Shown here piece after piece: positions 6,393 through 46,217 of a stretch of DNA of 64,000 nt. This DNA comes from Alphaproteobacteria bacterium (lineage in GTDB: Bacteria; Pseudomonadota; Alphaproteobacteria; Bin95). A program made the position numbers and the translations under genes. The notes beneath the pieces were generated by a model, which saw only the letters and a program-made list of their open reading frames with translations, ran no database searches and had not been told where the DNA came from. Numbering within the stretch: position 1 is the stretch's first letter; the number at the start of each line of letters is the position of its first letter. The stretch is from assembly GCA_965205265.1 (NCBI GenBank), contig CBDBGH010000003.1:5088001-5152000 (forward strand), given 5' to 3'.

Positions 6393-6439
6393 GGCACTCT
6401 CCTCCCGAGGTCCTTATGACTGCCTTCCGACACGGTCCG

Positions 6440-6493
6440 AGCCTACCGTTCCTTTAGACATATGTCAAGTGGCTTGTTATTGTAAGCGGATTG
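6440..6493 (-). promoter_or_regulatory. Sigma70-type promoter (TTGACA-N17-TAGGCT) with tandem boxes
   Basis: -35 at 6463-6468, -10 at 6440-6445; boxes CAAGTGGCTTG-N6-TAAGCGGATTG. Confidence 0.65.
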
Positions 6494-6729
6494 CAATGAA
6501 AAGCGGCTTATGGGAAAACGGGGTTTGCGGAACGGCAGGACAGGCGCGGGACGCTTGAGCTGGCCGCGGTTGCCCCGGCAGGGTTGGAAACCCGGAGGCT
6601 GGTGTCGATGCCCCGTGAGTTCAGCCCCGATGGAGCGGTTCGTGCCCGAGAGAATGTCGGAAGTGCCGCCGTCGCGGAGATAGCCGCAGCGGGGTCACCG
6701 GATGCCGCTGAACGACATGATTGTCGTCA

Positions 6730-6783
6730 CAATCCGATTATTTTGGCAATCCGCTTGACACAGTCACGCGGGACGACTATAAG
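6730..6783 (+). promoter_or_regulatory. tRNA-array promoter (TTGACA-N17-TATAAG) with tandem boxes
   Basis: -35 at 6755-6760, -10 at 6778-6783; boxes CAATCCGATTA-N6-CAATCCGCTTG. Confidence 0.75.
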
Positions 6784-6893
6784 AGTTCCGCGAGACAGTC
6801 AAGAACAACGCCCTGTCGTTTGAGCCGATCTGCCGGCTCCGTCGGGGCAGAGGAGGCGGACATAGAGACAGACCGAGAGGATCCCGGTCAGGC

Positions 6894-6969
6894 GCCGCAT
6901 TAGCTCAATGGACAGAGCGACGGTTTTCTAAACCGCGGGTTGCGGGTTCGAGTCCTGCATGCGGCCCCA
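6894..6969 (+). tRNA. tRNA-Arg(TCT)
   Basis: Cloverleaf, anticodon loop TTTCTAA, CCA. Confidence 0.9.
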
Positions 6970-6993
6970 GCCTCCGGGTTTCCAGCCCTGCCG

Positions 6994-7084
6994 GGGAGGG
7001 TGCCAGAGAGGCTGAATGGACCGGACTGTAAATCCGGCGGTACCGAAAGGGCCCGCGCAGGTTCGAATCCTGCTCCTCCCACCA
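6994..7084 (+). tRNA. tRNA-Tyr(GTA)
   Basis: Loop CTGTAAA, long variable arm, ACCA. Confidence 0.92.
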
Positions 7085-7127
7085 GGGAACCGGGATACGG
7101 GGAAGCCGGGTCACGCCGACCTCCGGC

Positions 7128-7203
7128 GCCGCATTAGCTCAGCTGGTAGAGCAGTCGCCTTGTAAGCGACCGGTCGCGGGTTCGAGGCCTGCATGCGGCT
7201 CCA
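7128..7203 (+). tRNA. tRNA-Thr(TGT)
   Basis: Loop CTTGTAA, CCA. Confidence 0.92.
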
Positions 7204-7206
7204 CCC

Positions 7207-7282
7207 GGCCCCTTCGTCTAAAGGTCAGGATACGAGATTCTCAATCTCGGGATGGCGGGTTCAAGTCCCCCAGGGGCCTCCA
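7207..7282 (+). tRNA. tRNA-Glu(CTC)
   Basis: Loop TTCTCAA, Glu-type D arm, CCA. Confidence 0.88.
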
Positions 7283-7386
7283 GAGGAACACTTACGGGCG
7301 CATGCCCCGTCTGCATGCGGGAAGAGGAACGAAGAAGGAGAAACAGCGCCGGGACACGGTGAAACACGACTCGGACATGCGCGGAT

Positions 7387-7461
7387 GCCGCATTAGCTCA
7401 ATTGGCAGAGCGGTCGTTTCGTAATCGACTGACGCGGGTTCGACTCCTGCATGCGGCTCCA
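7387..7461 (+). tRNA. tRNA-Thr(CGT)
   Basis: Loop TTCGTAA, CCA. Confidence 0.88.
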
Positions 7462-7484
7462 GCCGGGATTTCCGGAAGCGGGAC

Positions 7485-7560
7485 GACCCCTTGGTCTAAC
7501 GGTCAGGATACGAGACTTTCAATCTCGGGGCGGCGGGTTCGATTCCCCCAGGGGTCACCA
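7485..7560 (+). tRNA. tRNA-Glu(TTC)
   Basis: Loop CTTTCAA, ACCA. Confidence 0.88.
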
Positions 7561-7563
7561 AAC

Positions 7564-7657
7564 GGAAGGATGCCGGAGTCCGGTTTATCGGGGCGGGTTG
7601 CTAACCCGTTGTGCGCCGCAAGGCGCGCCGTGGGTTCGAATCCCACTCCTTCCGCCA
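7564..7657 (+). tRNA. tRNA-Ser(GCT)
   Basis: Loop TTGCTAA, long variable arm, GCCA. Confidence 0.92.
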
Positions 7658-7696
7658 CCGGCCGCCGGGACAGCAAGGGGAGACGGAAGAAAACAC

Positions 7697-7771
7697 GATG
7701 CGGTGGGAGAGAGGCTTATCCGCGGGGCCGCAAACCCCGTTACGCCGGTTCGAATCCGGCCCGCATCTCCA
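7697..7771 (+). tRNA. tRNA-Cys(GCA) with C33
   Basis: Loop CCGCAAA, U73, CCA. Confidence 0.85.
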
Positions 7772-7779
7772 GAACGGCA

Positions 7780-7857
7780 CGGGGTGTGGCGCAGTCTGGT
7801 CAGCGCGTCTGCTTTGGGAGCAGGTGGCCGCAGGTTCGAATCCTGCCACCCCGACCA
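7780..7857 (+). tRNA. tRNA-Pro(TGG)
   Basis: Loop TTTGGGA, C1:G72, ACCA. Confidence 0.92.
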
Positions 7858-7865
7858 TGACACGG

Positions 7866-7939
7866 GCGTTCGTAGTTCAAAGGGAGAATACCAGGTCGCC
7901 ATCCTGGTGATCCCGGTTCGAGTCCGGGCGGACGCTCCA
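7866..7939 (+). tRNA. tRNA-Gly(GCC) with C33
   Basis: Loop TCGCCAT, GCG acceptor, U73, CCA. Confidence 0.85.
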
Positions 7940-7948
7940 GAACATCCA

Positions 7949-8024
7949 TGGCCAGTAGCTCAACCGGCAGAGCACTGGATTGTTACTCCAGGGGTTGCAG
8001 GTTCGAAGCCTGCCTGGCCAGCCA
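7949..8024 (+). tRNA. tRNA-Asn(GTT)
   Basis: Loop TTGTTAC, U1:A72, GCCA. Confidence 0.9.
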
Positions 8025-8025
8025 A

Positions 8026-8135
8026 GCGTCCGTGGTTCAAAGGAACGGTTCCGGGCTTCCGGGCGGCCGTTCCGAGGAAGGGCACCGGTTTTTTCAACAC
8101 CGGGGATGCGGGTTCGAATCCCGCCGGACGCTCCA
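8026..8135 (+). tRNA. Aberrant 110-nt tRNA-like gene: Gly-type acceptor, D-arm insertion, expanded anticodon loop
   Basis: Perfect GCGTCCG/CGGACGC acceptor, TCCA end, perfect T arm; extra hairpin of about 30 nt; loop TTTTTCAAC. Confidence 0.65.
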
Positions 8136-8197
8136 GACACGTTACCGGCCGGCAGGCATCGCCAAGGTCCTGCCGGCCGGCACCGAGGGGACACGGA

Positions 8198-8473
8198 ATG
8201 GGACAGACAGTGTACAAGGAACATGTCACCGACGCCCTTGAGGGCGCCATGACCGGCCTGGCCCGCGAGGCGGGCGTGACCATGCCCTCGCTGATGGGCG
8301 CCATCGTGGTGTCGGTGCACCAGTCGCAGGAGGACGGGGCGCCGCCCGGGCTCCATATCGCGACGAACCTGCCCCGGGAGCTGTTTCACGAGGCTGTGGA
8401 ACGCCTTGCGGACCGGCAGGGGGCAGGGAAGGTCGAGCCGGACACGGAGGGCTATGCATCGGTCGGTTCGTAA
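8198..8473 (+). CDS. Hypothetical protein within the tRNA array
   Basis: MGQTVYKEHVTDALEG...; RBS GAGGGG. Confidence 0.65.
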   Translation: MGQTVYKEHVTDALEGAMTGLAREAGVTMPSLMGAIVVSVHQSQEDGAPPGLHIATNLPRELFHEAVERLADRQGAGKVEPDTEGYASVGS

Positions 8474-8478
8474 CTGGC

Positions 8479-8555
8479 GGGAGAGTGGCGGAAAAGGCAT
8501 ACGCGCCGGATTTAGGTTCCGGTCTATCCGGGTTCGAGTCCCGGCTCTCCTACCA
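8479..8555 (+). tRNA. tRNA-Leu(TAG), short variable loop
   Basis: Loop TTTAGGT, Leu-type D arm, ACCA. Confidence 0.88.
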
Positions 8556-8574
8556 GACGGCCGTGAAAGGACAG

Positions 8575-8648
8575 GCGGGTGTAGTTCAAAGGTAGAATGT
8601 CAGGTTTCCACCCTGAATATGCGGGTTCGATTCCCGCCATCCGCTCCA
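8575..8648 (+). tRNA. tRNA-Gly(TCC)
   Basis: Loop TTTCCAC, TCCA. Confidence 0.92.
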
Positions 8649-8679
8649 GCGCCGGCCTGGGAACGGAATTCAACATGAG

Positions 8680-8752
8680 GGCCTCATAGCTCAGTGGATA
8701 GAGCAGCGGTTTCCGGGACCGCAGGTCGAAGGTTCAAGTCCTTCTGAGGCCT
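8680..8752 (+). tRNA. tRNA-Arg(CCG), no encoded CCA (CTA instead)
   Basis: Loop TTCCGGG, full cloverleaf. Confidence 0.88.
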
Positions 8753-8839
8753 CTAGGACACCCCGGCACGACGCGCGTGGAAAGAGAGAACAAGACGCGG
8801 TTGCGCAGGGTTGAAGAAGGGAACGGGAGTGAAGTAAAG

Positions 8840-8931
8840 GGAAGCGTGCCGGAGTGGCTTAACGGGGCAGTCTTGAAAACTGACATGGGCCGGGAGGTCC
8901 ATCCTGGGTTCGAATCCCAGCGCTTCCTCCA
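8840..8931 (+). tRNA. tRNA-Ser(TGA)
   Basis: Loop CTTGAAA, long variable arm, CCA. Confidence 0.92.
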
Positions 8932-8964
8932 TCCCCGTTCCTTCATGCGGGAGAAACAGTTCCA

Positions 8965-9039
8965 GGTCTCGTCGTCTAGTGGTAAGGACACCGGATTGTC
9001 GATCCGGCAACGCGGGTTCAATTCCCGCCGGGACCGCCA
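8965..9039 (+). tRNA. tRNA-Asp(GTC)
   Basis: Loop TTGTCGA, G73, CCA. Confidence 0.9.
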
Positions 9040-9047
9040 AAACAAAC

Positions 9048-9123
9048 GGGGTCGTAGCTCAATCGGGAGAGCGTCTGCTTTGCAAGCAGAGGGTTGAGGG
9101 TTCAAGTCCCTCCGATTCCACCA
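9048..9123 (+). tRNA. tRNA-Ala(TGC)
   Basis: Loop TTTGCAA, G3:U70, ACCA. Confidence 0.92.
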
Positions 9124-9207
9124 ATGGCCTCTCCACGGCCCACCAAGGCCCGTGGAGAGGCCTCCAGATCGTACAGGGAGAAGATCCCGAAAAGAACACA
9201 GAAGGAC

Positions 9208-9283
9208 GGTCTCGTAGCTCAATGGACAGAGCGTCTGACTACGGATCAGAAGGTTGCGGGTTCGACTCCTGCCGAGACCTCCA
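9208..9283 (+). tRNA. tRNA-Arg(ACG)
   Basis: Loop CTACGGA, CCA. Confidence 0.92.
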
Positions 9284-9286
9284 GAT

Positions 9287-9362
9287 GCCCGGGTAGCTCA
9301 GCTGGTAGAGCGCTGCGTTGAAGGCGCAGGCGTCGGTGGTTCGATCCCATCCCCGGGCACCA
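9287..9362 (+). tRNA. tRNA-Phe(GAA)
   Basis: Loop TTGAAGG, ACCA. Confidence 0.92.
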
Positions 9363-9366
9363 TTGC

Positions 9367-9442
9367 GGCCCCGTAGCCAAGCGGTCAAAGGCTCCGGGTT
9401 CTGATCCCGGGATCCCTGGTTCGAATCCAGGCGGGGCTTCCA
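9367..9442 (+). tRNA. tRNA-Gln(CTG)
   Basis: Loop TTCTGAT, Gln-type D arm, CCA. Confidence 0.9.
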
Positions 9443-9579
9443 GTTGCACCGGAGCGGTAAAGGCTATGGCGAAGTTTTCGGGCGAAGCCGCTAAAGGAGC
9501 CATGCGGTCCGGGTCGCCGCGATCCGATCCGGGTTCCGGCAAACCGGCCGCGCGGGCCTGCGGGAAGGAAGGTCGAAGG

Positions 9580-9891
9580 ATGATCCAGACGATAGAATGG
9601 GACAGCTACACATACCGGTCCTATGTAGGCCAGTGCGAAGAGAACATCGCCCGCCTCGAGGCGGAGCTCGATCGGGCGAAGCACCATCTGTCGTTCGCGC
9701 AGGCGCAGTTCCAGGCGGTTGTTCCGTTGGGGATGGCAGATTCCAGCCTGCCGTCCAATTTCGGCGAAATCGTGCTGGCGGCCGAATTCAACGCGGGAAT
9801 GCTTCCCGAGGGTGTCGAGATCGGCGCCAAGATCAGGAAGATTGCCGCCGACATGATGACGGGCAGCCAGTCGGCCCCTGTTCGGCGGTAG
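9580..9891 (+). CDS. Hypothetical coiled-coil protein
   Basis: MIQTIEWDSYTYRSY...; purine-rich RBS. Confidence 0.6.
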   Translation: MIQTIEWDSYTYRSYVGQCEENIARLEAELDRAKHHLSFAQAQFQAVVPLGMADSSLPSNFGEIVLAAEFNAGMLPEGVEIGAKIRKIAADMMTGSQSAPVRR

Positions 9892-9980
9892 CTCGACCCG
9901 GCAGGCCGCCACGCCCGGTGCCGGTCCAGGTATGCCGGCCACCATCGTCATGGACATGATGTTCGACCATGCATACTGGC

Positions 9981-10013
9981 GTTAGACAACAATAACCAGT
10001 ATTGTTGTCTAAC
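9981..10013. promoter_or_regulatory. Perfect 14-bp inverted repeat, putative operator
   Basis: GTTAGACAACAATA-ACCAG-TATTGTTGTCTAAC immediately before the ATG at 10015. Confidence 0.65.
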
Positions 10014-10014
10014 C

Positions 10015-11097
10015 ATGCCATCCGCCCTCCGGTTCCACAGCCATTCCGGCCACGCCGCCTACCAGGATCTCCGGCGTCGGCTCATGGATGCGGCCGTGTC
10101 GGAAATCCGCGGCACCCCGACCCGGCTCGCCGTCAAGGGCCGCTATTTCTGGTACGACAAATACCGGGTCGGGACGGAGGTGAGACAGCGCTATATCGGC
10201 CCCGAGACCGACGGGCTGCTCGCCAGGCTGGACCGCCTGGCCGATTTGCGCAGGGATCGAAGGGCCACGGAGCGGGAACAGGCCCGACTCATCCGTTTCC
10301 TGCGGGCCGACAGCTATAACTCGCTGGACCGCGGCACCGGCAGCCTCCTGGCCTCCTTCGCCGGATGCGGCGTCTTCCGCCTGGGCGGCACGCTCATCGG
10401 GGCTGTCGCCTTCCAGCATTACGAGGGCGAACTCGGCGTGGTCATGGATTTCGAGCGGATAGCCCGGACCGACGACATCGACATCGCCAGCTTCGAACGA
10501 CTGTCCTTCGCCATCGGCGACAGCGTCGAAACGCCCTTGGAGGAGGTCTTTCGAGAGCTGAAGTTCCAGCCCGTTCCGTCCCTGGACCAGCGGCATGTCT
10601 GGCGCTGGCGCCAGACGACCGGCTCCGTCCTGGTCGAATTCCTGATGCCGGCGCACGGGGAGGAAGGGATACGCAGACTGCCCGCCCTGGGCGTCAGCGC
10701 CCGTGCGCTTCGTCATCTGGACTATCTTCTCGAAGATCCCGTTCCGGCCGTGTCTCTCTACCGGTCAGGCGTGCTTGTCCGGATTCCGCGTCCCGAGCGG
10801 TTCGCGATCCACAAGCTCATCGTGGCCGAACGCCGTCGGGGCGGCCCGGATTCCCTGAAGGCCTCCAAGGACCGGGCCCAGGCGGATTTCCTCATTGCCG
10901 CCCTGGCGGAAATGCGCCCGGATGAACTGGCTCTCGCCTATGGCGAGGCCATGGGTCGAGGCCCCGGCTGGAGCAATCGCATAACGGCAAGCCTGAACAG
11001 GCTGCCGGGCGCAAGGGAGCGCGTCCTGGGCGTTGTCGGCGCCGACGACGCCCATCCGCAGCCGTCGGCCTCCTCAACCATATCCGGCCCCGCCTGA
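10015..11097 (+). CDS. GSU2403-family nucleotidyltransferase-fold protein
   Basis: GVFRLGGTLIGAVAF, RTDDIDIA, VRIPRPERFAIHKLIVA, KASKDRAQA motifs. Confidence 0.85.
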   Translation: MPSALRFHSHSGHAAYQDLRRRLMDAAVSEIRGTPTRLAVKGRYFWYDKYRVGTEVRQRYIGPETDGLLARLDRLADLRRDRRATEREQARLIRFLRADSYNSLDRGTGSLLASFAGCGVFRLGGTLIGAVAFQHYEGELGVVMDFERIARTDDIDIASFERLSFAIGDSVETPLEEVFRELKFQPVPSLDQRHVWRWRQTTGSVLVEFLMPAHGEEGIRRLPALGVSARALRHLDYLLEDPVPAVSLYRSGVLVRIPRPERFAIHKLIVAERRRGGPDSLKASKDRAQADFLIAALAEMRPDELALAYGEAMGRGPGWSNRITASLNRLPGARERVLGVVGADDAHPQPSASSTISGPA

Positions 11098-11498
11098 AGC
11101 AGGATCCGACATTCCGAATTCCAAGGTCCGCTGTTCCACAATATCGGGACTGGAGCCCCGCAAAGTTTGCAGCGGTTTTTTTGGTTGACTGCGGCGATTT
11201 GAACGCTAGATTGGCGGCCCATTGATCCACGGGGCTTGAGGCAGAACCTCTCCTTCGTGTTCAAGACGGGGAAGACAGGACCATGGCGAGAGTCATAAAA
11301 CCGAGCGTCAGCCGCAAAGCGTGCTTGAGCTTGCCGGTCCGTCACCAATTGTGGCCGTGGTGGCCTCATATTATCTGCGGCGTGTAAGGGCAGGACCCGG
11401 ACCCGTTAACCGAAGCAGTCCTGTGGCAAGCACCTGAAGCGGTTCCAATCCGTCCCGGTGGCCGAACGACCCCTTCCGCCGAAGCAGCCTCCATCCAT

Positions 11499-11574
11499 AG
11501 CCCTATAGCCAAGCGGTCAAAGGCTCCGGGTTTTGATCCCGGGATCCCGGGTTCGAATCCCGGTAGGGCTTCCA
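11499..11574 (+). tRNA. tRNA-Gln(TTG)
   Basis: Loop TTTTGAT, CCA. Confidence 0.9.
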
Positions 11575-11597
11575 ATACACACAACCTTTGCAACCGG

Positions 11598-11673
11598 GCG
11601 CCTGTAGTTCAACTGGCAAGAACATCGGTCTCCAAAACCGAGGATACAGGTTCGAATCCTGTCGGGCGCGCCA
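11598..11673 (+). tRNA. tRNA-Trp(CCA)
   Basis: Loop CTCCAAA, GCCA. Confidence 0.92.
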
Positions 11674-11707
11674 ACCCTGAAACCGGGAGGTACGGACAGA
11701 AAACGGA

Positions 11708-11784
11708 GCGCGGGTGGTGAAACTGGCAAACACACGGCATTCAAACTGTCGGCACTGGGGGTTCGAGTCCCTCCCCGCGTACCA
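11708..11784 (+). tRNA. tRNA-Leu(CAA), short variable loop
   Basis: Loop TTCAAAC, Leu-type D arm, ACCA. Confidence 0.88.
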
Positions 11785-11792
11785 CCCCTTCC

Positions 11793-11866
11793 AGGCGTGT
11801 AGCTTAATGGTAGAGCAGCCGACTGATAATCGGCCGGTCGAGGTTCAACTCCTTGCACGCCTACCA
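11793..11866 (+). tRNA. tRNA-Ile(GAT)
   Basis: Loop CTGATAA, ACCA. Confidence 0.9.
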
Positions 11867-11883
11867 ACCGCATATGCCACGGC

Positions 11884-11958
11884 AGCCCCATAGCCAAGCG
11901 GCAAAGGCTCCGGGTTTACACCCCGGGATCCCCGGTTCGAGTCCGGGTGGGGCTACCA
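11884..11958 (+). tRNA. tRNA-Val(TAC) on a tRNA-Gln-like body
   Basis: Loop TTTACAC, A73, CCA; D arm and anticodon stem match the Gln genes. Confidence 0.85.
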
Positions 11959-11961
11959 ATC

Positions 11962-12035
11962 GGGCCCGTAGTTCAACGGTAGAACGCTCGACTTTTAATC
12001 GAGGAATGAGAGTTCGATTCTCTCCGGGCCTTCCA
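11962..12035 (+). tRNA. tRNA-Lys(TTT)
   Basis: Loop CTTTTAA, CCA. Confidence 0.9.
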
Positions 12036-12045
12036 TCATCCTGCT

Positions 12046-12119
12046 GTGCCGGTAGCTTAGTCGGTCAAAGCGCCAGGTTGTGGCCCTGGAGATCGGGTTC
12101 GATTCCCGCCGGCACCCCA
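12046..12119 (+). tRNA. tRNA-His(GTG)
   Basis: Loop TTGTGGC, C73, CCA; short T stem; no encoded G-1. Confidence 0.82.
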
Positions 12120-12205
12120 CAGCACCGTTATATGCCCGGCGGCCGGGTGCCGCCGTTCCAGGACGGCGCCCTTCCCGCAGGAATTGCGGACCCCTCTAGC
12201 GGAAG

Positions 12206-13135
12206 CTACGGGGAAGGGGATTCTTCGGCCTGCGCCCGCGGTCCGGGACTATACGGGGCTTCCCAGACACGCCGCTCGCCGAGCAGCAGCTTGCGCATGT
12301 CGTGAACCAGGCTGTCTTGCGCCTCGACGAACTGTTCTTCGAGCGCGCGGTCCGGTGCGCCCGGCATGCCCGGCATGCGGCATCGGTTCCATACATGCTC
12401 AAGCAGCCAGTGGTGTTGCGCCGCTTCCCAGAACGCCGCCTTCCCGAGTGGGACGCTCTTCCGGCAATCGGCGTGGAATTTGCGGGCGCGGTCCTCCGTT
12501 ATCTCATGGCCCGCGCTGCGGACCGCATCGATATTGGCCGCGGCGATATCGTCTGCAAATTCGAGGTCCAGCTTAGTCGGGATATTGCCGATCCTCTTGC
12601 CGGAATGCTTCTCGATGAGCCACGCGCAGACACCGATATGCTGCGGCCGGCACAGAGGCCCCTTTCCCTGGCGGAAGCCGGTATCCTTTCCGGCCAGAAG
12701 CTCGTCGCGCATCTCCAGGGCAACCGTATCGCGAGCGGTTCCAATCCACCCCCAGGCCGCGCTTTCCGGCCACTGCGGGTGCTCGCAACTCTGGTAGTCG
12801 AGGCATCCGAGATAGGCGTGGGCCTCGGCTGTGCTGCAACTGATCGGTGCGGCGATCCGGCAAGCCTCCATATAAGCCCGGCCGGTCTGCTCGCCGGGAA
12901 TCATGTCGGCCAGCGGGTCTTCTTCCGGGCCGGGGTCGCCAGCGGCCATGCCCATCTCCCGCTCATAGAGGTCCCGGGCCTCGGGACCGTAACGGAAGGC
13001 GACGCTTTTCAGGTTTTCCAGCGCAAGCGCCTGGGCGATGTCCGCCGGGTCCATATTGGCGGCGGCGGGAACCGAGTCCGCGATGATGCGGGCGCAGGTT
13101 GCGATATGAGTCTCGTTGCAGATGAAGGCGCTCAT
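12206..13135 (-). CDS. Phage-type hypothetical protein with an apparent internal domain duplication
   Basis: MSAFICNETHIATCA...ENLKSVAFRY...CLDYQSCEHPQW; second unit LCRPQHIGVCA...ANIDAV. Confidence 0.75.
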   Translation of the reverse strand: MSAFICNETHIATCARIIADSVPAAANMDPADIAQALALENLKSVAFRYGPEARDLYEREMGMAAGDPGPEEDPLADMIPGEQTGRAYMEACRIAAPISCSTAEAHAYLGCLDYQSCEHPQWPESAAWGWIGTARDTVALEMRDELLAGKDTGFRQGKGPLCRPQHIGVCAWLIEKHSGKRIGNIPTKLDLEFADDIAAANIDAVRSAGHEITEDRARKFHADCRKSVPLGKAAFWEAAQHHWLLEHVWNRCRMPGMPGAPDRALEEQFVEAQDSLVHDMRKLLLGERRVWEAPYSPGPRAQAEESPSP

Positions 13136-13204
13136 GAGCGGCTCCTCTGGCTACATGCCGTTCGCCAGTCCGTTGCATTGCAACCTAAGTGGGCGATGTG
13201 AAAA

Positions 13205-13610
13205 CGCCAAACCCGAAACCCGGCCGGACCGGCGTCAATCCCATGGCGACGGAGGCGGTGGTCGGGGCAGCCGGAAGCGTGCGGAGCGAAGCAGCTGTCA
13301 GGCGAAAGGACGGGTCCTAGAGGCGCCCCGACCCTTTCGAGCGGAAGGTGGCAGCCGCTCTGCGGCCCGCTCGCCTGTCTGCTGACAGATCCGCGGAATT
13401 GCGAGCGGACATGACAGTCCGCCCCAAAATTATCCTGCGGCCCGGCCTTGAAGTCCCGGGGCCGCCGGTCTATCTGGCCGTGGTAACCCAACGGGCGTTC
13501 CCGAGGCGAACGCGGATTTCGGAGAGTTCCACTTCTTCCACACACCGGTTGCGACAGGAAGTTTCGGGCGGCGGGTGGACCGGCTCTTCCCTTGGGTCAA
13601 GGGAAATATC
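13205..13610 (+). ncRNA. Candidate large structured ncRNA
   Basis: No credible ORF; many nested and long-range helices; directly upstream of tRNA-Met; strand inferred from the tRNA. Confidence 0.4.
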
Positions 13611-13619
13611 CCATCGGAT

Positions 13620-13696
13620 TGCGGGATGGCGCAGACGGCAAGCGCGCCTGGCTCATAACCAGGAGGTCGAAGGTTCGAGTCCTTCTCCCGCAACCA
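13620..13696 (+). tRNA. tRNA-Met(CAT), initiator-like body
   Basis: Loop CTCATAA, TGCGGGA/TCCCGCA acceptor, ACCA. Confidence 0.9.
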
Positions 13697-17994: not shown

Positions 17995-18867
17995 ATGGCG
18001 ATGACGGCCGAGGAGCTTCTGGAGCGCTATGCGGCGGGCGAGCGCGACTTCTCCGGTCTGGACCTGAGGGGCATCTTCCTGAAGGACCGGATCCTGAACG
18101 GCGCAAGGTTTGCTGGAGCGGACCTGACCGGGGCGAGCCTGTTCCGGGCGAAGCTGATCGGCGCCGATTTCACCGGTGCCGACCTGACCAGGGCGAGCCT
18201 GGGATGGGCGACCCTGTACCGTGCGATTCTCGACGATAGCGTGTGCGTCAAGGCCAATTTCGGTTCGGCTAGGACAGTGGCGCGAGGACGGTATCTGCCG
18301 GGGGTCACGAGTTTCCGGCGCGCGAATTTCGCCGACGCGAGGATGCCGTCGATCCGGTTCGAGTGGACCGACCTGTCATATGCCACTTTCGCCGGGGCCG
18401 ATCTTTCCCGGGCCACGTTTTCCGAGTGTCACCTGGACCATGCCGATCTGACCGCGGCAAGGGCGCGCCGCAGCGAGTTCTGGATGTGCAGTCTTGCGCA
18501 GACGAGCTTCGCCGGCGCGAACTTGAAGGAGTCCGTCCTGCAGCGGTGCGCGTTCCACGATACGGGATTCCCGCAGGCCGATATGAGACGGATGCTGATG
18601 GACTTGCAGGATTCGCGTAACGCGGAGGGCAAGGACATGAAGCGCAACGGCAGGGTCGATTTGTCCGGCGCCGACATCCGGGGGACCCGGCTGGACGAGC
18701 TTGCCGACGCGATAACGAACGGCCTGATACGTCTCGACGGCGCAAAGGCGGACGGGACGACGGATTTCCGCTGGTCTGGCGATGCATATATCGAGGAAGA
18801 AGAGCGGGAGGAGATCGAAAGGCTCCTGGGCCTTCAGGTTCGGGAACAGGAAAGCATCAGCCCGTGA
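17995..18867 (+). CDS. Pentapeptide-repeat protein
   Basis: LLERYAAGERDF N-terminus, many A(D/N)(L/F)xx repeats. Confidence 0.92.
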   Translation: MAMTAEELLERYAAGERDFSGLDLRGIFLKDRILNGARFAGADLTGASLFRAKLIGADFTGADLTRASLGWATLYRAILDDSVCVKANFGSARTVARGRYLPGVTSFRRANFADARMPSIRFEWTDLSYATFAGADLSRATFSECHLDHADLTAARARRSEFWMCSLAQTSFAGANLKESVLQRCAFHDTGFPQADMRRMLMDLQDSRNAEGKDMKRNGRVDLSGADIRGTRLDELADAITNGLIRLDGAKADGTTDFRWSGDAYIEEEEREEIERLLGLQVREQESISP

Positions 18868-18900
18868 CGGCTCCATGGGAGGCGCCGGAGACCGTGCCGG

Positions 18901-19092
18901 TCATTTCCCGCGCCATACCATGCGCAGCGTGCCGCAATGATCCCGCGCGGCTTCCTTGATCCCGGACCATGCGCCGATCAGCAATCCCAGCACCATCGAG
19001 ATCGGGAATGTCAGCACTATCGCGCACACCAGCACGGACCAGGGCATCCATCGCACATATGGTTTCAGCCGCTGCCGGTAGTCCCGGCCCAT
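18901..19092 (-). CDS. Small membrane protein
   Basis: MGRDYRQRLKP..., hydrophobic core; RBS GGGGAG. Confidence 0.5.
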   Translation of the reverse strand: MGRDYRQRLKPYVRWMPWSVLVCAIVLTFPISMVLGLLIGAWSGIKEAARDHCGTLRMVWRGK

Positions 19093-19298
19093 CCCGCTCT
19101 CTCCCCGTCCGGCAATGTACATGAGCTGCGAAGGGAACTCCCATGAATTGTTGCGGACAAAGGGCAGGAATCCCAATAGCCTGAAACGTCATGTGCGCCA
19201 GCAGTCCGGCGGCAGGTATCCAAGGGGTCAATGATGGGCCCCGACCTCATCTCCCCCGGAAGCGGGGAGCCGGACATTTTCGGAGTGAGGACGAAAGC

Positions 19299-19637
19299 AT
19301 GAGCGACACAGCCAACATCCTGTTCGCCGCCGCGGACCTGGTTGACCGGGGCTGGACCCAAAAAGCCTACGCTGTCGGCAGTGACGGGCGGTCCGTTGTT
19401 CCGGATGGCCCCTTGGCCAGAAAATGGAACGTCATCGGTGCTATCGCCGCGGCGGCCGGGCGATTTCACCGTGGCGCGGAACTCGCCTTGACGAACCATC
19501 TGGATGTTTGGGAACTGGAACTCTGGAACAACGAGCCCGGCCGCACGCAGGCGGAGGTGAGCGCCGCGCTCCGGGAGTGTGCGTTCCTCCTCCGGGGCGA
19601 CGGCGCCCCGGCCTCATCGAGGTTCGCGAGCGCATGA
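19299..19637 (+). CDS. DUF6197-like hypothetical protein
   Basis: RGWTQ...W.VIGAI...WNNEPGRTQAEV; ATGA-coupled to parE. Confidence 0.75.
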   Translation: MSDTANILFAAADLVDRGWTQKAYAVGSDGRSVVPDGPLARKWNVIGAIAAAAGRFHRGAELALTNHLDVWELELWNNEPGRTQAEVSAALRECAFLLRGDGAPASSRFASA

Positions 19638-21631
19638 GTGGCGAGAACGTCGTGCCGATGCCGGGCCTTTTCGCGGAAGACGAAGCCGCGAATTCCTACA
19701 CCGCCGAGCATATCGAGGTGCTCGAGGGCCTGGAGCCGGTGCGGCGCCGGCCCGGCATGTATATCGGCTCGACCGGCGAAGCCGGCCTCCATCACCTGGC
19801 CGCCGAACTGCTCGACAATGCGATGGACGAGGCGGTCGCGGGTCATGCCGACCGCATCGAGTTCGCGCTCGGCCGGGACGGCTGGGTCGAGGTCCGCGAC
19901 AACGGGCGCGGCATTCCCGTGGAGCCGCATCCCAGGTTTGCCGACCGTTCGGCGCTCGAGGTGATCCTGACCACCCTCCACTCGGGAGCGAAATTCGCCG
20001 ACGGGGCCGACAGCGCCTACCGCACGGCCGGCGGCCTGCACGGCGTCGGAATTTCCGTGGTCAATGCCCTCGCCGCCGAACTGGTGATCGAGGTCACGCG
20101 CGAACGCATCATGTGGCGCCAGAGCTACGAGTGCGGCAAGGCGGTATCGAAGCTGGAAAAGGTGGGTATCTCGCGCAACAGGCGCGGAACCGCCGTCCGG
20201 TTCCGCCCCGACAGGGCGATCTTCGGTGAAGCGACCCGTTTCAGGCCCGAGCGGCTGTATCGCATGGTCCGCTCGAAGGCCTCCCTGTTCGCCGGCGTGC
20301 GCCTGCTGTGGCGTTGCCATCCCTCGCTGCTCGCGGGGAACCCGGACGTGCCGGCGGAGGCGGAGCTGCACTTTCCGGGCGGTCTCGCCGACTATCTCGA
20401 CGCTTCCACGCAGGACCGCGAGCGCGTCGCCGACGCGGTGTTCTCGGGCCAGGTGGAGTTTCCCGGGGATACCGGGCGGGTCGAATGGGCCGTGACCTGG
20501 CTCGCCGACGGCGAGGGCTTTACGCAGAGCTACTGCAATACCATCCCGACGCCGCTCGGGGGCAGCCACGAGGCCGGCCTGCGTCTGGCGCTGATGAAGG
20601 GGCTGCGCACGCATGGCGAGCATGTCGGCAATCGCAAGACCGCCCGGATCAACGCCGATGACGCCATCGGCGGCGCCGGCGTCATGCTGTCGGCCTTCAT
20701 CCGGAACCCGCAGTTCCAGGGCCAGACCAAGGAGAAGCTCGAGAGTCCGGAGACGCAGCGTCTGGTCGAGCAGACCGTAAAGGACCGGTTTGACCACTGG
20801 CTGGCGGCGGATACCGAGGCGGCCACCGCGCTCGCGGCCTTTGCGGTGGAGCGCGCGGAGGAGCGCCATCGGCGGCGCGAGGAGCGCGACCGGCGCAAGA
20901 AGGCCGCCGGGACACGGCGGGCCCGCCTGCCGGGCAAGCTGACCGACTGCTCGAGGCGCGAGCGCGACGGCGCCGAGATATTCCTGGTGGAAGGCGATTC
21001 CGCCGGCGGTTCGGCAAAGCAGGCCCGGCGGCGCGAGACGCAGGCCATCCTGCCGCTGCGCGGCAAGATCCTGAATGTCGCCAGCGCCACCGCCGACCGG
21101 GTCCGGGCCAACCGCGAGGTCGCCGATCTCGAGCTCGCGCTCGGCTGCGGGACAGGCGATGGCTACCGCGATGAGGATCTGCGCTATGAGCGCGTCATCA
21201 TCATGACGGACGCCGACGTCGACGGCGCGCATATCGCGGCCCTGCTGATGACCTATTTCATGCAGGAAATGCCGGGCCTGGTCGAGGCCGGACGGCTCTA
21301 CCTGGCCCGGCCGCCGCTCTACAGGCTCTCCGCAGGCGGCGTCACCGCCTATGCGCGCGACGATGCGCACCGCGCGGAGTTGCTCGAAACGGTCTTCAGC
21401 GGCAGGCGGAAAGTCGAGATATCCCGGTTCAAGGGCCTGGGCGAGATGCCGCCCGGCCAGCTGCGCGACACCACCATGGATCCGGCCCGGCGCAGCCTCC
21501 TGCGGGTCGAACCGGACAGGGGCGGAGCATCCTTCGACATCATGGAGCGGCTGATGGGGCGCAATCCGCGCCACCGGCTGGACTTCATCCGCGAGAACGC
21601 GGACGGGGCCGCGGTCCTCGTGGACGCCTGA
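19634..21631 (+). CDS. parE: DNA topoisomerase IV subunit B
   Basis: IEVLEGLEPVRRRPGMYIG, GGLHGVG, EGDSAGG, PLRGKILN, MTDADVDG, ISRFKGLGEM; alphaproteobacterial ParE type. Confidence 0.93.
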   Translation: MSGENVVPMPGLFAEDEAANSYTAEHIEVLEGLEPVRRRPGMYIGSTGEAGLHHLAAELLDNAMDEAVAGHADRIEFALGRDGWVEVRDNGRGIPVEPHPRFADRSALEVILTTLHSGAKFADGADSAYRTAGGLHGVGISVVNALAAELVIEVTRERIMWRQSYECGKAVSKLEKVGISRNRRGTAVRFRPDRAIFGEATRFRPERLYRMVRSKASLFAGVRLLWRCHPSLLAGNPDVPAEAELHFPGGLADYLDASTQDRERVADAVFSGQVEFPGDTGRVEWAVTWLADGEGFTQSYCNTIPTPLGGSHEAGLRLALMKGLRTHGEHVGNRKTARINADDAIGGAGVMLSAFIRNPQFQGQTKEKLESPETQRLVEQTVKDRFDHWLAADTEAATALAAFAVERAEERHRRREERDRRKKAAGTRRARLPGKLTDCSRRERDGAEIFLVEGDSAGGSAKQARRRETQAILPLRGKILNVASATADRVRANREVADLELALGCGTGDGYRDEDLRYERVIIMTDADVDGAHIAALLMTYFMQEMPGLVEAGRLYLARPPLYRLSAGGVTAYARDDAHRAELLETVFSGRRKVEISRFKGLGEMPPGQLRDTTMDPARRSLLRVEPDRGGASFDIMERLMGRNPRHRLDFIRENADGAAVLVDA

Positions 21632-31269: not shown

Positions 31270-31355
31270 TTTAAATGGGTGCACGTCCTGATTTTGCGAG
31301 GTTGAGAAATGCCATGGTTCCGCCACGATATCTGTTTCTTATATTCGGGGGGCAG

Positions 31356-31787
31356 ATGGAGGCGGACATGGCCAGGACCGATCACGACGGCCTCGTCGAA
31401 CAGCGTGGCGAGCTGCTGCGGGAGATTGCGGGCATCGGCGACCTCCGTCAGGGTTCGCTCAGGGCACAGTACCGCAAGTGCGGCAAACCGAACTGCCATT
31501 GCGCGGTCGAGGGGGCGCAGGGGCATGGCCCCTACTGGTTGTTGACCTGGCCGGACAGGGAGACGGGGAAGTCCCGCGGCCGCACCGTTCCCGCCGACGC
31601 CATTGAGGGAACGCGGGCGCAGATCGCGGAATACCAGCGGCTTCGCGGTCTGGTGCGCGCGCTTGTCGAGGTCAGCGGCCGGATATGCGATGCCAGGCTG
31701 GACGCGGACAAGCCGGCCGCGCCGGGAAAAAGGGGGGTCTCGACGCAGCGATCGCGGAGGAGGTCGAGGCCGAGGTCGAGTGGCTGA
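31356..31787 (+). CDS. IS orfA (DUF6788-like)
   Basis: GSLRAQYRKCGKPNCHC...HGPYWLLT. Confidence 0.8.
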   Translation: MEADMARTDHDGLVEQRGELLREIAGIGDLRQGSLRAQYRKCGKPNCHCAVEGAQGHGPYWLLTWPDRETGKSRGRTVPADAIEGTRAQIAEYQRLRGLVRALVEVSGRICDARLDADKPAAPGKRGVSTQRSRRRSRPRSSG

Positions 31788-38899: not shown

Positions 38900-39228
38900 A
38901 TCCGGCCGCTGACCTCGACAAGCGCGCGCACCAGACCGCGAAGCCGCTGGTATTCCGCGATCTGCGCCCGCGTTCCCTCAATGGCGTCGGCGGGAACGGT
39001 GCGGCCGCGGGACTTCCCTGTCTCCCTGTCCGGCCAAGTCAACAACCAGTAGGGGCCATGCCCCTGCGCCCCCTCGACCGCGCAATGGCAGTTCGGTTTG
39101 CCGCACTTGCGGTACTGTGCCCTGAGCGAACCCTGACGGAGGTCGCCGATGCCCGCAATCTCCCGCAGCAGCTCGCCACGCTGTTCGACGAGGCCGTCGT
39201 GATCGGTCCTGGCCATGTCCGCCTCCAT
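38797..39228 (-). CDS. IS orfA (DUF6788-like)
   Basis: Same as copy 1 orfA. Confidence 0.8.
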   Translation of the reverse strand: MEADMARTDHDGLVEQRGELLREIAGIGDLRQGSLRAQYRKCGKPNCHCAVEGAQGHGPYWLLTWPDRETGKSRGRTVPADAIEGTRAQIAEYQRLRGLVRALVEVSGRICDARLDADKPAAPGKRGVSTQRSRRRSRPRSSG

Positions 39229-39292
39229 CTGCCCCCCGAATATAAGAAACAGATATCGTGGCGAAACCATGGCATTTCTCAACCTCGCAAAA

Positions 39293-45970: not shown

Positions 45971-46207
45971 ATGTCGTTCGTTCCCGTGGTCGATCTGACG
46001 GATCCCGCATGCGAACCCTCCGATGCGGAGCTGGAAGCCCTGATGCAGTCGGTGTGCGACGGGGTGATCGAGCGCGATATCCGGACCCAGGAACGTTTCG
46101 AGGCGAGCCTGGCCGACAGCATTGCACAGGCCGCACGGGGCGGGACGGCATGGGGCCCGCCCGCCGACCAGGCTGAAGAGGAAGCGGCCGGCACGTTCGA
46201 GCCGTGA
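45971..46207 (+). CDS. Small protein upstream of the zeta-like ATPase, putative antitoxin
   Basis: EPSDAELEALM motif; two-gene arrangement. Confidence 0.6.
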   Translation: MSFVPVVDLTDPACEPSDAELEALMQSVCDGVIERDIRTQERFEASLADSIAQAARGGTAWGPPADQAEEEAAGTFEP

Positions 46208-46217
46208 CGGCGGACCG

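What the first reader, a model, noticed from the sequence alone, without database searches (positions are those of the whole stretch)
8026..8135. 110-nt tRNA-Gly-like RNA with an extra D-loop hairpin and a 9-nt anticodon loop containing UCA
Seen: perfect Gly-type acceptor (GCGTCCG/CGGACGC, U73, CCA) and perfect T arm. The D region carries an inserted stem GGAACGGTT-CCGG-GCTT-CCGG-GC-GGCCGTTCC. The anticodon arm is CCGGT-TTTTTCAAC-ACCGG, whose last 7 nt (TTTCAAC) differ by one base from the Gly(TCC) loop TTTCCAC at 8575-8648. Inference: retained pairing argues against plain decay. It could be a UGA-reading or frameshift-suppressor tRNA, a processed and religated precursor (an RNA ligase is present), or a non-ribosomal decoy. 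The anticodon register is ambiguous (TCA versus TTC).
Basis: partly seen in the sequence, partly recalled or inferred. Interest (0 to 1): 0.75.

Follow-up and report, generated by a model that had tools for sequence, protein, structure and literature searches.

The report
Aberrant glycine-type tRNA gene in array
A real but one-of-a-kind, misshapen glycine-type tRNA gene sits inside a horizontally acquired cluster of 28 normal tRNA genes; it is most likely a damaged copy that no longer decodes, and nothing found here shows that it reads stop codons.

Summary
Window 8026-8135 (+) is a tRNA-derived gene: Rfam tRNA 41.8 bits against a cut-off of 29. It has a 7-bp Gly-type acceptor, U73, an encoded CCA, a perfect T arm and a perfect 5-bp anticodon stem. 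It also has a 36-nt D-loop insertion and a 9-nt anticodon loop, UUUUUCAAC. ARAGORN does not call it.

It is the 29th gene of a long tRNA array (6894-13696) that already covers all 20 amino acids. The array lies on a mobile-element-rich island that was not found in 40 relatives.

Contigs of three runs from two studies lie on it without a difference, so an assembly error is unlikely.

No homolog turned up in any collection searched, so covariation cannot be tested.

The insertion contains an 8-nt tandem duplication and is flanked by a 5-nt direct repeat. Folding predicts that it pairs with the two conserved D-loop G's.

TGA is the main stop codon and RF2 is present. No in-frame TGA use was seen in the window. 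No splicing endonuclease was found.

Best reading: a damaged tRNA-Gly paralog, probably still transcribed and processed but not decoding. A weak UGA or frameshift reader, or a decoy RNA, is not excluded.

The parts
8026..8135 (+). Whole aberrant tRNA-Gly-like gene (110 nt with encoded CCA)
   Evidence: Rfam RF00005 41.8 bits over 8026-8132, model positions 1-71. Not called by ARAGORN.
8026..8032 (+). Acceptor stem, 5' strand GCGTCCG. It pairs with 8125-8131 (CGGACGC). T at 8132 is the discriminator; CCA is at 8133-8135.
   Evidence: Sequence. Pair probabilities 0.8-1.0.
8035..8038 (+). D-stem 5' strand GTTC. The partner is either GGGC at 8080-8083 (Rfam alignment) or GAA at 8077-8079 (MFE fold).
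   Evidence: probability about 0.1 for the Rfam register and 0.57-0.82 for the MFE register.
8042..8073 (+). Inserted hairpin in the D-loop: 8 bp, a 2-nt bulge, 5 bp and the tetraloop GCTT. Its 5' arm starts with the two G's that stand where G18 and G19 stand in a tRNA.
   Evidence: helix probabilities 0.95-0.98 and 0.56-0.97; the hairpin alone folds at -19.6 kcal/mol., I8.
8049..8064 (+). Exact tandem duplication TTCCGGGC x 2 inside the insertion
   Evidence: the repeat finder family D2
8041..8045 (+). AGGAA, the first copy of a 5-nt direct repeat that flanks a 29-nt stretch. The second copy is at 8075-8079.
   Evidence: Read from the sequence. Without the 29 nt and one repeat copy the D-loop would be 7 nt long, as in the array's two Gly genes.
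8085..8103 (+). Anticodon arm: 5-bp stem CCGGT/ACCGG around the 9-nt loop TTTTTCAAC (8090-8098). TCA is at 8094-8096.
   Evidence: Pair probabilities 0.91-0.98.
8108..8124 (+). T arm GCGGG-TTCGAAT-CCCGC
   Evidence: Pair probabilities 0.93-0.94.
6894..13696 (+). Long tRNA array that holds the gene: 28 canonical tRNA genes, all on the + strand and covering all 20 amino acids, plus this one
   Evidence: ARAGORN and Rfam
6755..6783 (+). Promoter-like TTGACA, 17 nt, TATAAG, about 110 nt upstream of the first tRNA of the array
   Evidence: Read from the sequence. The scan tool does not list it, because it requires T at the last position of the second hexamer.
8140..8185 (+). G+C-rich inverted repeat directly after the gene, with no T run behind it
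   Evidence: the repeat finder I1: 17-nt arms, 88% complementary. No terminator-like site was found in 6400-9600.

Best explanation
This is a genuine tRNA-derived gene. It is a class-I, glycine-type paralog that belongs to a horizontally acquired long tRNA array (an 'L-array', or tRNA array unit).

Three lesions have altered it:
1. A 34-36-nt insertion in the D-loop. It is flanked by the 5-nt direct repeat AGGAA and carries an 8-nt tandem duplication.
2. Two extra T's at the 5' side of the anticodon loop, which lengthen a T run.
3. An A where Gly tRNAs have C36.

Inferred steps:
- It is co-transcribed with its neighbours.
- Because the acceptor and T arms are intact, it is probably cut out by RNase P and the 3'-end nucleases as a stable RNA of about 110 nt.
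- It does not work as a normal elongator tRNA. The inserted helix is predicted to pair with the two D-loop G's that normally dock on the T-loop. The anticodon loop has 9 nt instead of 7. One recalled GlyRS anticodon determinant is lost.

The array already supplies Gly(GCC) and Gly(UCC) and a complete set for 20 amino acids. A surplus copy is therefore free to decay.

In short, it is a relic, or at most a very weak reader of UGA or UGAAA, carried along as a passenger.
For: **Array membership and surplus.** The gene lies in phase in an array of 28 canonical tRNAs that cover all 20 amino acids. The array meets the published definition of a tRNA array unit (at least 20 genes, at least 2 per kb; abstract of PMC4758250 in the listing). 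No match to this gene was seen in 40 relatives. Pfam shows Mu-type and IS21-type transposition genes on the island.

**Low score.** It is the lowest-scoring of the genome's 79 tRNA matches, and ARAGORN misses it.

**Mutational footprints.**
- Exact tandem repeat TTCCGGGC x 2.
- 5-nt direct repeat AGGAA on both sides of 29 nt.
- A T run of 6 where Gly(TCC) has 3.

**Predicted structure.**
- The acceptor, T and anticodon stems stay paired (p = 0.8-1.0).
- The insert helix pairs with the two D-loop G's (p = 0.98).
- A canonical-like alternative with those G's free costs 8.5 kcal/mol more (-42.4 against -50.9).

**No sign that UGA is read as sense.**
- TGA ends 876 of 1224 long high-GC3 ORFs.
- Two prfB matches pass the cut-off.
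- A screen for coding-like frames joined across TGA gave 6 candidates. The two that I scanned gave no domain that needs read-through.

**No conservation.** No homolog was found in any collection searched.

**Literature.**
- Arrays are described as holding 'tRNA genes and pseudogenes' (PMC4758250, passage).
- The Anabaena array has 26 genes, of which 23 encode functional tRNAs (PMC8421152, passages).
- The Caulobacter phage CcrColossus cluster is annotated with 'tRNA-Pseudo' and 'tRNA-OTHER' entries.
Against: - All four canonical stems are still perfectly paired. Against the array's Gly(GCC) gene, the anticodon stem differs at two pairs by changes on both sides (A-T to G-C and G-C to T-A, read by eye). 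The molecule was therefore under selection for pairing for part of its history.
- The insertion is itself a strong hairpin rather than random sequence.
- After three hits in one small gene one might expect stem damage too, and there is none.
- The loop can be read as U32 U33 + UCA + A37 C38 with two extra 5' U's. That is exactly a one-letter change from the Gly(UCC) loop.
- The gene is unchanged in contigs of runs from two studies.
- Thermodynamic folding ignores tertiary contacts, so the loss of the elbow is a prediction, not a result.
- The searches for homologs relied on exact-word patterns and BLAST, which miss diverged RNA.
Confidence: 0.55

Rival explanations
1. It is a working non-canonical decoder: a Gly-charged tRNA that reads UGA (anticodon UCA with two extra 5' loop U's), or that reads a longer codon such as UGAAA through a 5-base anticodon in the 9-nt loop. 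It would give low-level read-through or frameshifting when the array is expressed.
For: - U73 and the first three acceptor pairs G-C, C-G, G-C match the bacterial Gly identity set (the set is recalled; the sequence is).
- The loop differs from the Gly(UCC) loop by C36 to A plus two U's.
- The acceptor, T and anticodon stems are intact.
- Two ankyrin genes at 54476-57097 lie in one frame, separated by TGA. This is also what one in three neighbouring gene pairs would show by chance.
Against: - No homolog was found, so conservation cannot be shown.
- TGA is the stop of 876 of 1224 long ORFs and RF2 is present. An efficient suppressor would be costly.
- No domain was found to span an in-frame TGA.
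- The D-loop G's are predicted to be paired.
- The 9-nt loop is outside the natural 7-nt rule (PMC7609411, passage).
- A survey found no tRNA-Sec(TCA) and no suppressor tRNAs (CTA, TTA) in tRNA array units (PMC4758250, passage).
Confidence: 0.12
2. It is a tRNA-like RNA with a role outside decoding. It could be a decoy or sponge for a tRNA-cutting toxin or anticodon nuclease. It could instead be a processing or stability element that marks the end of the first block of the array, ahead of the small ORF at 8198-8473.
For: - tRNA array units are called a putative anti-defence system (abstract start of PMC12803027, listing).
- In Anabaena the array is induced under translational stress together with an RNA ligase gene (PMC8421152, passages).
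- This island carries an Rnl1-type RNA ligase next to a P-loop kinase-like gene.
- The intact acceptor and T arms should give a stable, processed RNA (inference).
- A strong hairpin and an ORF follow directly.
Against: - No partner nuclease was identified near the array.
- The ligase lies 36 kb away, behind several insertion sequences.
- No homolog was found, and no other case appeared in five other arrays: 0 of 113 Rfam tRNA matches were longer than 91 nt.
- Nothing in the loop sequence matches a known nuclease target that I could test.
Confidence: 0.2
3. It is a precursor whose D-loop insertion is cut out and whose halves are rejoined by the island's RNA ligase, giving a normal-sized tRNA.
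For: - An Rnl1-family ligase is present in the window (PF09511, E = 1e-18; phrog_562).
- The insertion is a discrete hairpin with direct repeats at its borders.
Against: - No tRNA-intron endonuclease was found: 0 matches in the genome, while the control search rings in 4 archaeal genomes.
- The fold shows a symmetric 3 x 3 internal loop, not a bulge-helix-bulge.
- No intron family was matched in the window, and 34-36 nt is too short for a self-splicing intron (established knowledge).
- Removing the insertion would still leave the 9-nt loop.
- The ligase is 36 kb away.
Confidence: 0.03
4. It is an assembly or sequencing artefact: a homopolymer error in the T run or a chimeric join.
For: Nothing specific. 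The T6 run is the kind of place where some platforms slip.
Against: - Contigs of X1 (depth 173.8), X3 (depth 96.3, second study) and X4 (depth 1066, to 8282) cover the gene with 0 other letters.
- No insertion or deletion is listed at the run.
Confidence: 0.02

Closest known systems
Aberrant tRNA genes and pseudogenes inside long tRNA arrays (L-arrays, or tRNA array units), such as the Anabaena sp. PCC 7120 trn operon
   Same: - A surplus tRNA-like gene in a same-strand array acquired by horizontal transfer.
- Arrays are described as holding 'tRNA genes and pseudogenes' (PMC4758250).
- The Anabaena array has 26 genes, of which 23 encode functional tRNAs (PMC8421152).
   Different: - The lesions here are unusual: a hairpin of about 32 nt in the D-loop and a 9-nt anticodon loop.
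- None of 113 Rfam tRNA matches in five other arrays exceeded 91 nt.
- I could not see the papers' supplements, which may list comparable cases.
Bacterial tRNA-Gly (the array's own Gly(GCC) at 7866-7939 and Gly(TCC) at 8575-8648)
   Same: - U73 and the first three acceptor pairs.
- The acceptor differs from Gly(GCC) at 1 of 14 positions.
- The T arm differs from Gly(TCC) at 1 of 17 positions.
- A 4-nt variable loop.
- The loop ends in ..TTTCmAC.
   Different: - The anticodon stem sequence is closer to the array's tRNA-Trp(CCA), which is the best overall paralog at 77% against 76% for Gly(TCC).
- A36 instead of C36.
- Two extra loop U's.
- The D-loop insertion.
UGA-reading tRNAs with anticodon UCA (natural suppressors; tRNA-Gly(UCA) of genetic code 25; tRNA-Trp(UCA) of code 4). 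Recalled, except Trp(UCA), which is mentioned in PMC13092985.
   Same: TCA sits at the place of the anticodon if the loop is read from its 3' side.
   Different: - Those tRNAs have 7-nt loops and canonical D-arms, and they occur in genomes that lack RF2 or use UGA as sense.
- Here RF2 is present and TGA is the main stop.
Frameshift-suppressor tRNAs with expanded anticodon loops (SufB2-type 8-nt loops; engineered 9-nt loops for five-base codons are recalled)
   Same: An enlarged anticodon loop on an otherwise intact anticodon stem.
   Different: - The natural cases seen in the listing (SufB2) have one extra nucleotide, not two.
- None has a D-loop hairpin.
- No frameshift-dependent gene was identified here.
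tRNA-Sec
   Same: Anticodon UCA and an unusually long D-arm.
   Different: - tRNA-Sec has a 6-bp D-stem with a 4-nt loop (PMC7609411).
- It also has a longer acceptor stem, a long variable arm and G73 (recalled).
- Here the acceptor stem is 7 bp, the T stem 5 bp, the variable loop 4 nt and the discriminator U73.
Archaeal tRNA introns at non-canonical sites, including the D-loop (recalled)
   Same: A short extra hairpin-forming stretch inside the D-loop of a tRNA gene.
   Different: - They need a bulge-helix-bulge motif and the EndA endonuclease.
- Neither is found here, and the host is a bacterium.

Membership tests
tRNA (Rfam RF00005) | Score at or above the curated gathering score | tested here: met
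   41.8 bits against 29; all 71 model positions matched
tRNA (Rfam RF00005) | 7-bp acceptor stem, 5-bp T stem with a 7-nt T loop, 5-bp anticodon stem | tested here: met
   All are Watson-Crick pairs; pair probabilities 0.8-1.0
tRNA (canonical cloverleaf) | 7-nt anticodon loop | tested here: not met
   9 nt, TTTTTCAAC, at 8090-8098. The 7-nt rule is stated in PMC7609411.
tRNA (canonical cloverleaf) | Short D-loop whose G18 and G19 are free to dock on the T-loop | tested here: not met
   The D-loop is 41 nt in the Rfam alignment. The two G's are paired in the insert helix with p = 0.98. This is a prediction that ignores tertiary structure.
tRNA (gene finders) | Called by ARAGORN | tested here: not met
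   28 genes were called; this one was not
Bacterial tRNA-Gly (identity set recalled: U73, G1:C72, C2:G71, G3:C70, C35, C36) | Acceptor-end determinants | tested here: met
   GCG.../...CGC and T at 8132
Bacterial tRNA-Gly (identity set recalled) | C35 and C36 in the anticodon | tested here: not met
   In the TCA register C35 is present, but position 36 is A
Bacterial tRNA-Gly | Charged by GlyRS | not testable with these tools
   Needs a charging assay
UGA suppressor or UGA-sense decoding system | Associated genes carry in-frame UGA that must be read | tested here: not met
   The screen of the window gave 6 candidate frames. I scanned two of them, and neither has a domain spanning the TGA. The other four were not scanned.
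UGA suppressor or UGA-sense decoding system | UGA is not the organism's regular stop, or RF2 is absent | tested here: not met
   TGA ends 876 of 1224 long ORFs. Two prfB matches pass the cut-off.
Long tRNA array (tRNA array unit, L-array) | At least 20 tRNA genes at 2 or more per kb, in the same orientation | tested here: met
   29 genes in 6.8 kb, all on the + strand. The definition is from the abstract of PMC4758250.
Long tRNA array (L-array) | Patchy distribution that points to horizontal transfer | tested here: met
   Among 40 relatives no match lay on this gene; the listed matches to its flanks were single stretches of 26-87 nt. Transposition genes lie on the island. An array of the same kind, with pentapeptide and topoisomerase genes, sits on an Acidiphilium multivorum plasmid.
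Archaeal-type spliced tRNA | EndA-family endonuclease in the genome and a bulge-helix-bulge at the insertion | tested here: not met
   PF01974 gave 0 matches, while the control search rings in 4 archaea. The fold shows a symmetric internal loop.
tRNA-Sec | 6-bp D-stem with a 4-nt loop, long variable arm, longer acceptor stem | tested here: not met
   7-bp acceptor stem, 4-nt variable loop, and a 3-4-bp D-stem plus a long helix behind an internal loop

The most novel reading that the evidence does not exclude
The 110-nt RNA is made, folded and used. It would be a bacterial tRNA-Gly derivative with a rod-like D-arm extension and a 9-nt anticodon loop. It would either insert glycine at UGA or at a five-base UGAAA-type codon at a low, regulated level when the array is switched on. 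Or it would serve as a tRNA-shaped decoy that protects the cell's tRNAs from an anticodon nuclease. Either way it would be the first natural bacterial tRNA-like RNA found with a hairpin inserted in the D-loop.
Probability: 0.12. Interest if true: 0.8.

Novelty: new member of a known kind. Interest (0 to 1): 0.3.

Why it matters
If it is a relic, it is a clean snapshot of how surplus genes in horizontally acquired tRNA arrays decay. Slippage-type insertions hit the loops while the stems are still intact. It is also a reminder that gene finders miss such copies.

If it were functional, it would break two near-universal rules of bacterial tRNA shape, the short D-loop and the 7-nt anticodon loop. 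It would also place a UGA-directed or frameshifting adaptor on a mobile element in a genome where UGA is the main stop. That would bear on how stop-codon reassignment starts.

Tried and rejected
**Searches for homologs: nothing related found**
- The exact anticodon-arm pattern gave 0 matches in genome contigs.
- The exact 3'-half pattern gave 0 matches in genome contigs and 0 in viral contigs.
- The architecture pattern (Gly-type D-loop motif, 55-85 nt, T-loop motif) gave the following:
  - 0 matches in viral contigs.
  - 90 stretches in genome contigs, 80 of them listed as loci. The script found 90 pattern matches in the loci held. Of these, 7 had 5 or more of 7 acceptor pairs, and none has a D-loop insertion.
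  - 8 stretches in metagenome contigs, none homologous.
- BLAST of the gene against phages and plasmids found only generic matches to the tRNA 3' half.
- BLAST of the 2.5-kb array found only scattered single-tRNA similarity.
- Among 40 relatives, 0 had a match on the gene.
- Among 400 genomes of the class, 0 had a full-length match. This count includes the unpublished genomes G064 and G263.
- The one 39-nt match to the insert, in G391 (87% identity), lies just upstream of an ORF start. I take it for chance in G+C-rich DNA.

**Looking for related arrays through neighbouring proteins**
- Eight loci with NTP_transf_8 relatives have no array.
- The 91-aa ORF has no relative in genome contigs or viral contigs.

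**Origin of the insertion**
- It is not a genome-wide repeat. The 18-19-nt matches elsewhere appear to lie inside coding sequence.
- An internal partial duplication of the D and anticodon region looked attractive by eye but is not significant: 111 of 300 and 34 of 300 shuffles reach the observed score.

**Other checks**
- Expression: no RNA holder is listed among the public runs.
- The T run is not part of a terminator-like site by the scan's rule.
- Supplementary tables of the array papers could not be read. They may list similar aberrant genes.

Full report
**1. The observation**

Window 8026-8135 (+) reads as follows:
- acceptor GCGTCCG, then TG
- D-stem strand GTTC and loop start AAAGG
- a long insertion
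- GGGC, then A
- anticodon stem CCGGT, loop TTTTTCAAC, stem ACCGG
- variable loop GGAT
- T arm GCGGG-TTCGAAT-CCCGC
- acceptor CGGACGC, then T and CCA

The Rfam tRNA model matches 8026-8132 over all 71 positions at 41.8 bits (gathering score 29). E is 1.8e-5 for the whole window. The alignment shows 36 letters where the model has 2 in the D-loop, and 5 where it has 3 in the anticodon loop.

ARAGORN tRNA genes between 6894 and 13696 but not this one. Among the 79 tRNA matches of the whole genome it scores lowest.

The MFE fold (-50.9 kcal/mol) keeps the acceptor, anticodon and T stems. It turns the D region into a 3-bp stem, a 3 x 3 internal loop and a 13-bp helix capped by GCUU. The energy is only modestly better than shuffles (z = -1.71; 15 of 200 shuffles fold as well).

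**2. Is the sequence real?**

Seven public runs from three studies hold all or part of the stretch. Five of them, from two studies, hold half of its sampled words or more. I laid four runs on it.
- Contigs of X1 and X3 cover 7700-8700, and a contig of X4 covers 7700-8282.
- All three lie on it with 0 other letters.
- No insertion or deletion is listed at the T run.

X1 may be the sample the window came from. X3 is from another study. These are contigs, not reads, so rare variants would not show. An assembly slip is nevertheless unlikely.

**3. Context**

The window is G000:C3:5088001-5152000 of a 5.7-Mb genome. The best relatives of one island protein are alphaproteobacterial.

The 28 canonical genes cover all 20 amino acids. 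They include Gly(GCC) at 7866-7939 and Gly(TCC) at 8575-8648. All lie on the + strand with encoded CCA. The odd gene starts 1 nt after the CCA of tRNA-Asn.

With 29 genes in 6.8 kb, the cluster meets the published definition of a tRNA array unit (abstract of PMC4758250, listing). It also fits the 'L-arrays' that spread by horizontal transfer (PMC8421152, passages).

In 40 relatives no match lay on this gene. The listed matches to the 801-nt stretch around it were single stretches of 26-87 nt.

The surrounding island holds the following:
- an NTP_transf_8 gene
- ankyrin and pentapeptide-repeat genes
- a GyrB-like gene
- Mu-type, IS21-type and IS605-type transposition genes
- 36 kb away, an Rnl1-type RNA ligase next to a P-loop kinase-like gene

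A plasmid of Acidiphilium multivorum carries a 37-gene array beside pentapeptide and topoisomerase IV genes. That is an element of the same kind, and it has no counterpart of the odd gene.

TTGACA, 17 nt, TATAAG lies at 6755-6783, upstream of the array.

**4. Homologs**

None were found.
- Exact patterns of the anticodon arm and of the 3' half gave 0 matches.
- A pattern that asks only for the Gly-type D-loop motif, 55-85 nt and the T-loop motif gave 0 viral matches.
- The same pattern gave 90 stretches in genome contigs. The script found 90 pattern matches in the loci held. Seven had 5 or more acceptor pairs, and none has a D-loop insertion.
- It gave 8 metagenome stretches, none homologous.
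- BLAST against phages, plasmids, 40 relatives and 400 genomes of the class found only generic tRNA similarity. The count of 400 includes the unpublished genomes G064 and G263.
- In five other arrays, 0 of 113 Rfam tRNA matches were longer than 91 nt.

These searches rest on exact words and BLAST. They would miss a diverged RNA, so 'orphan' means 'not found in what was searched'. Without homologs no covariation test is possible.

**5. What the sequence itself says**

*(a) Identity.*
- U73 and the first three acceptor pairs are those of bacterial tRNA-Gly (the identity set is recalled).
- The acceptor differs from the array's Gly(GCC) at 1 of 14 positions.
- The T arm differs from Gly(TCC) at 1 of 17 positions.
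- The loop ends in TTTCAAC, against TTTCCAC in Gly(TCC).
- By overall alignment the nearest paralogs are the array's Trp(CCA) (77%) and Gly(TCC) (76%). There is therefore no recent twin.

*(b) Past constraint.* Against Gly(GCC), the anticodon stem differs at two pairs by changes on both sides (read by eye).

*(c) Lesions.*
- The insertion contains an exact tandem repeat, TTCCGGGC x 2, at 8049-8064.
- AGGAA at 8041-8045 and again at 8075-8079 flanks 29 nt.
- Without those 34 nt the D-loop would be 7 nt long, like the AAAGGGA and AAAGGTA of the two Gly genes.
- The anticodon loop carries two more T's in a run.
- Position 36 is A.

These look like slippage-type and insertion-type mutations.

*(d) Predicted consequence.*
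- The insert helix pairs with the two G's that stand for G18 and G19 (p = 0.98).
- A structure that frees them and uses the Rfam D-stem costs 8.5 kcal/mol more.
- The other three stems keep probabilities of 0.8-1.0.

The insertion is not a genome-wide repeat. An internal duplication is not statistically supported.

**6. Tests of the functional readings**

*UGA reading.*
- TGA ends 876 of 1224 long high-GC3 ORFs.
- Two prfB matches pass the cut-off.
- A screen for coding-like frames joined across TGA gave 6 candidates.
- The two that I scanned show no domain that needs the TGA to be read. One of them is simply two ankyrin genes in one frame.
- A survey reported no tRNA-Sec(TCA) and no suppressor tRNAs (CTA, TTA) in tRNA array units (PMC4758250, passage).

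*Splicing.*
- No EndA-type endonuclease was found in the genome, while the control search rings in 4 archaea.
- There is no bulge-helix-bulge and no intron family in the window.
- The ligase is far away.

*Decoy or regulator.* This is untestable here. The only support is the general view of arrays as anti-defence or stress devices (listing; passages).

**7. Verdict**

The gene is a real, reproducibly assembled, orphan member of a horizontally acquired tRNA array. It is of Gly type and carries three loop lesions with intact stems.

The most likely mechanism has four parts, and all are inferred:
1. It is co-transcribed with the array.
2. It is excised by RNase P and the 3' nucleases, because the acceptor and T arms are intact.
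3. It persists as a stable RNA of about 110 nt.
4. It has lost normal decoding.

It is a surplus copy on the way to being a pseudogene (confidence 0.55). A weak UGA or five-base-codon reader (0.12) and a non-decoding tRNA-like function (0.2) remain open. Splicing (0.03) and artefact (0.02) are unlikely.

Compared with what is known, it is a new member of a known kind: an aberrant tRNA gene in an array.

In the passages I saw of the review of non-canonical tRNAs (12 of 17 places, PMC7609411), no natural tRNA with a D-loop hairpin insertion is described. [quoted passage not shown] If the RNA proved to be charged and active, it would therefore be a notable exception.

Noticed in passing
window 6894-13696: A complete 28-gene tRNA array covers all 20 amino acids, on an island not found in 40 relatives. 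The genome has 50 further tRNA matches elsewhere.
   Followed up: partly
window 17995-21628; L120 (NZ_CP041717.1 136000-160000): A pentapeptide-repeat gene and a GyrB-like gene lie beside the array. The Acidiphilium multivorum plasmid array likewise has a pentapeptide-repeat gene, parC, and GIY-YIG and HNH endonuclease genes. Arrays may travel with topoisomerase-related genes.
   Followed up: partly
window 44524-45789 (-) and 46122-46832 (+): An Rnl1-type RNA ligase (PF09511, phrog_562) lies divergently next to a P-loop kinase-like ORF (Zeta_toxin/AAA_33 match). This may be an RNA healing-and-sealing pair.
   Followed up: no
window 31275-33064 (+) and 37520-39282 (-): Two inverted copies of a DUF6788 ORF plus a 460-aa UPF0236-like ORF bracket about 4.5 kb, like a composite transposon. 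Both 460-aa ORFs give the same Pfam match at the same E-value.
   Followed up: no
G000:C3:5228011-5229018 (outside the window): A second prfB (RF2) match passes the curated cut-off (439.6 bits), about 76 kb beyond the window's end. The main copy is at 2269930-2270952. The genome's 7.28% 'contamination' may reflect such duplicated core genes.
   Followed up: no
window 54476-57097 (+): Two ankyrin-repeat genes (440 and 419 aa) lie in the same frame, separated by TGA and 12 codons.
   Followed up: partly
L073 (Acaryochloris marina NC_009925.1) 1318-1446 and about 1459-1580: Two adjacent tRNA-like genes carry long insertions, with no other tRNA within 8 kb by ARAGORN. The first (Rfam tRNA, 45.9 bits) has about 64 nt in the anticodon loop. 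In the second the extra stretch follows a normal D-arm, and a shorter register scores 22.2 bits.
   Followed up: partly
L036, L111, L113, L115: A set of acidobacterial and metagenomic tRNA-like sequences has a normal D-arm, 7 of 7 acceptor pairs in three of the four, a long extra stretch before the T arm and no CCA end. They match no tRNA finder.
   Followed up: no
L129 (Caulobacter phage CcrColossus) 5577-5662, 8356-8445, 15391-15479, 15496-15592: Class-I tRNAs of unusual length (Trp 86 nt, Lys 90, Asn 89, Arg 97 by ARAGORN) and several entries annotated 'tRNA-Pseudo' or 'tRNA-OTHER' occur in a phage tRNA cluster.
   Followed up: no
L020 (Agrobacterium plasmid CP039918.1) 1463-1537: ARAGORN calls a tRNA of undetermined type with a two-base 'anticodon (cc)', next to an integrase gene.
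   Followed up: no
L127 (Arthrobacter plasmid NZ_CP104273.1) 13032-13421: A plasmid-borne array of 37 tRNA genes also carries a tmRNA gene.
   Followed up: no
window 8258-8378: In run X4 the small ORF after the odd tRNA is covered by several 60-65-nt contigs with 0-2 differences, at much higher summed depth than the flanks. This suggests strain variation or a repeated segment there.
   Followed up: no
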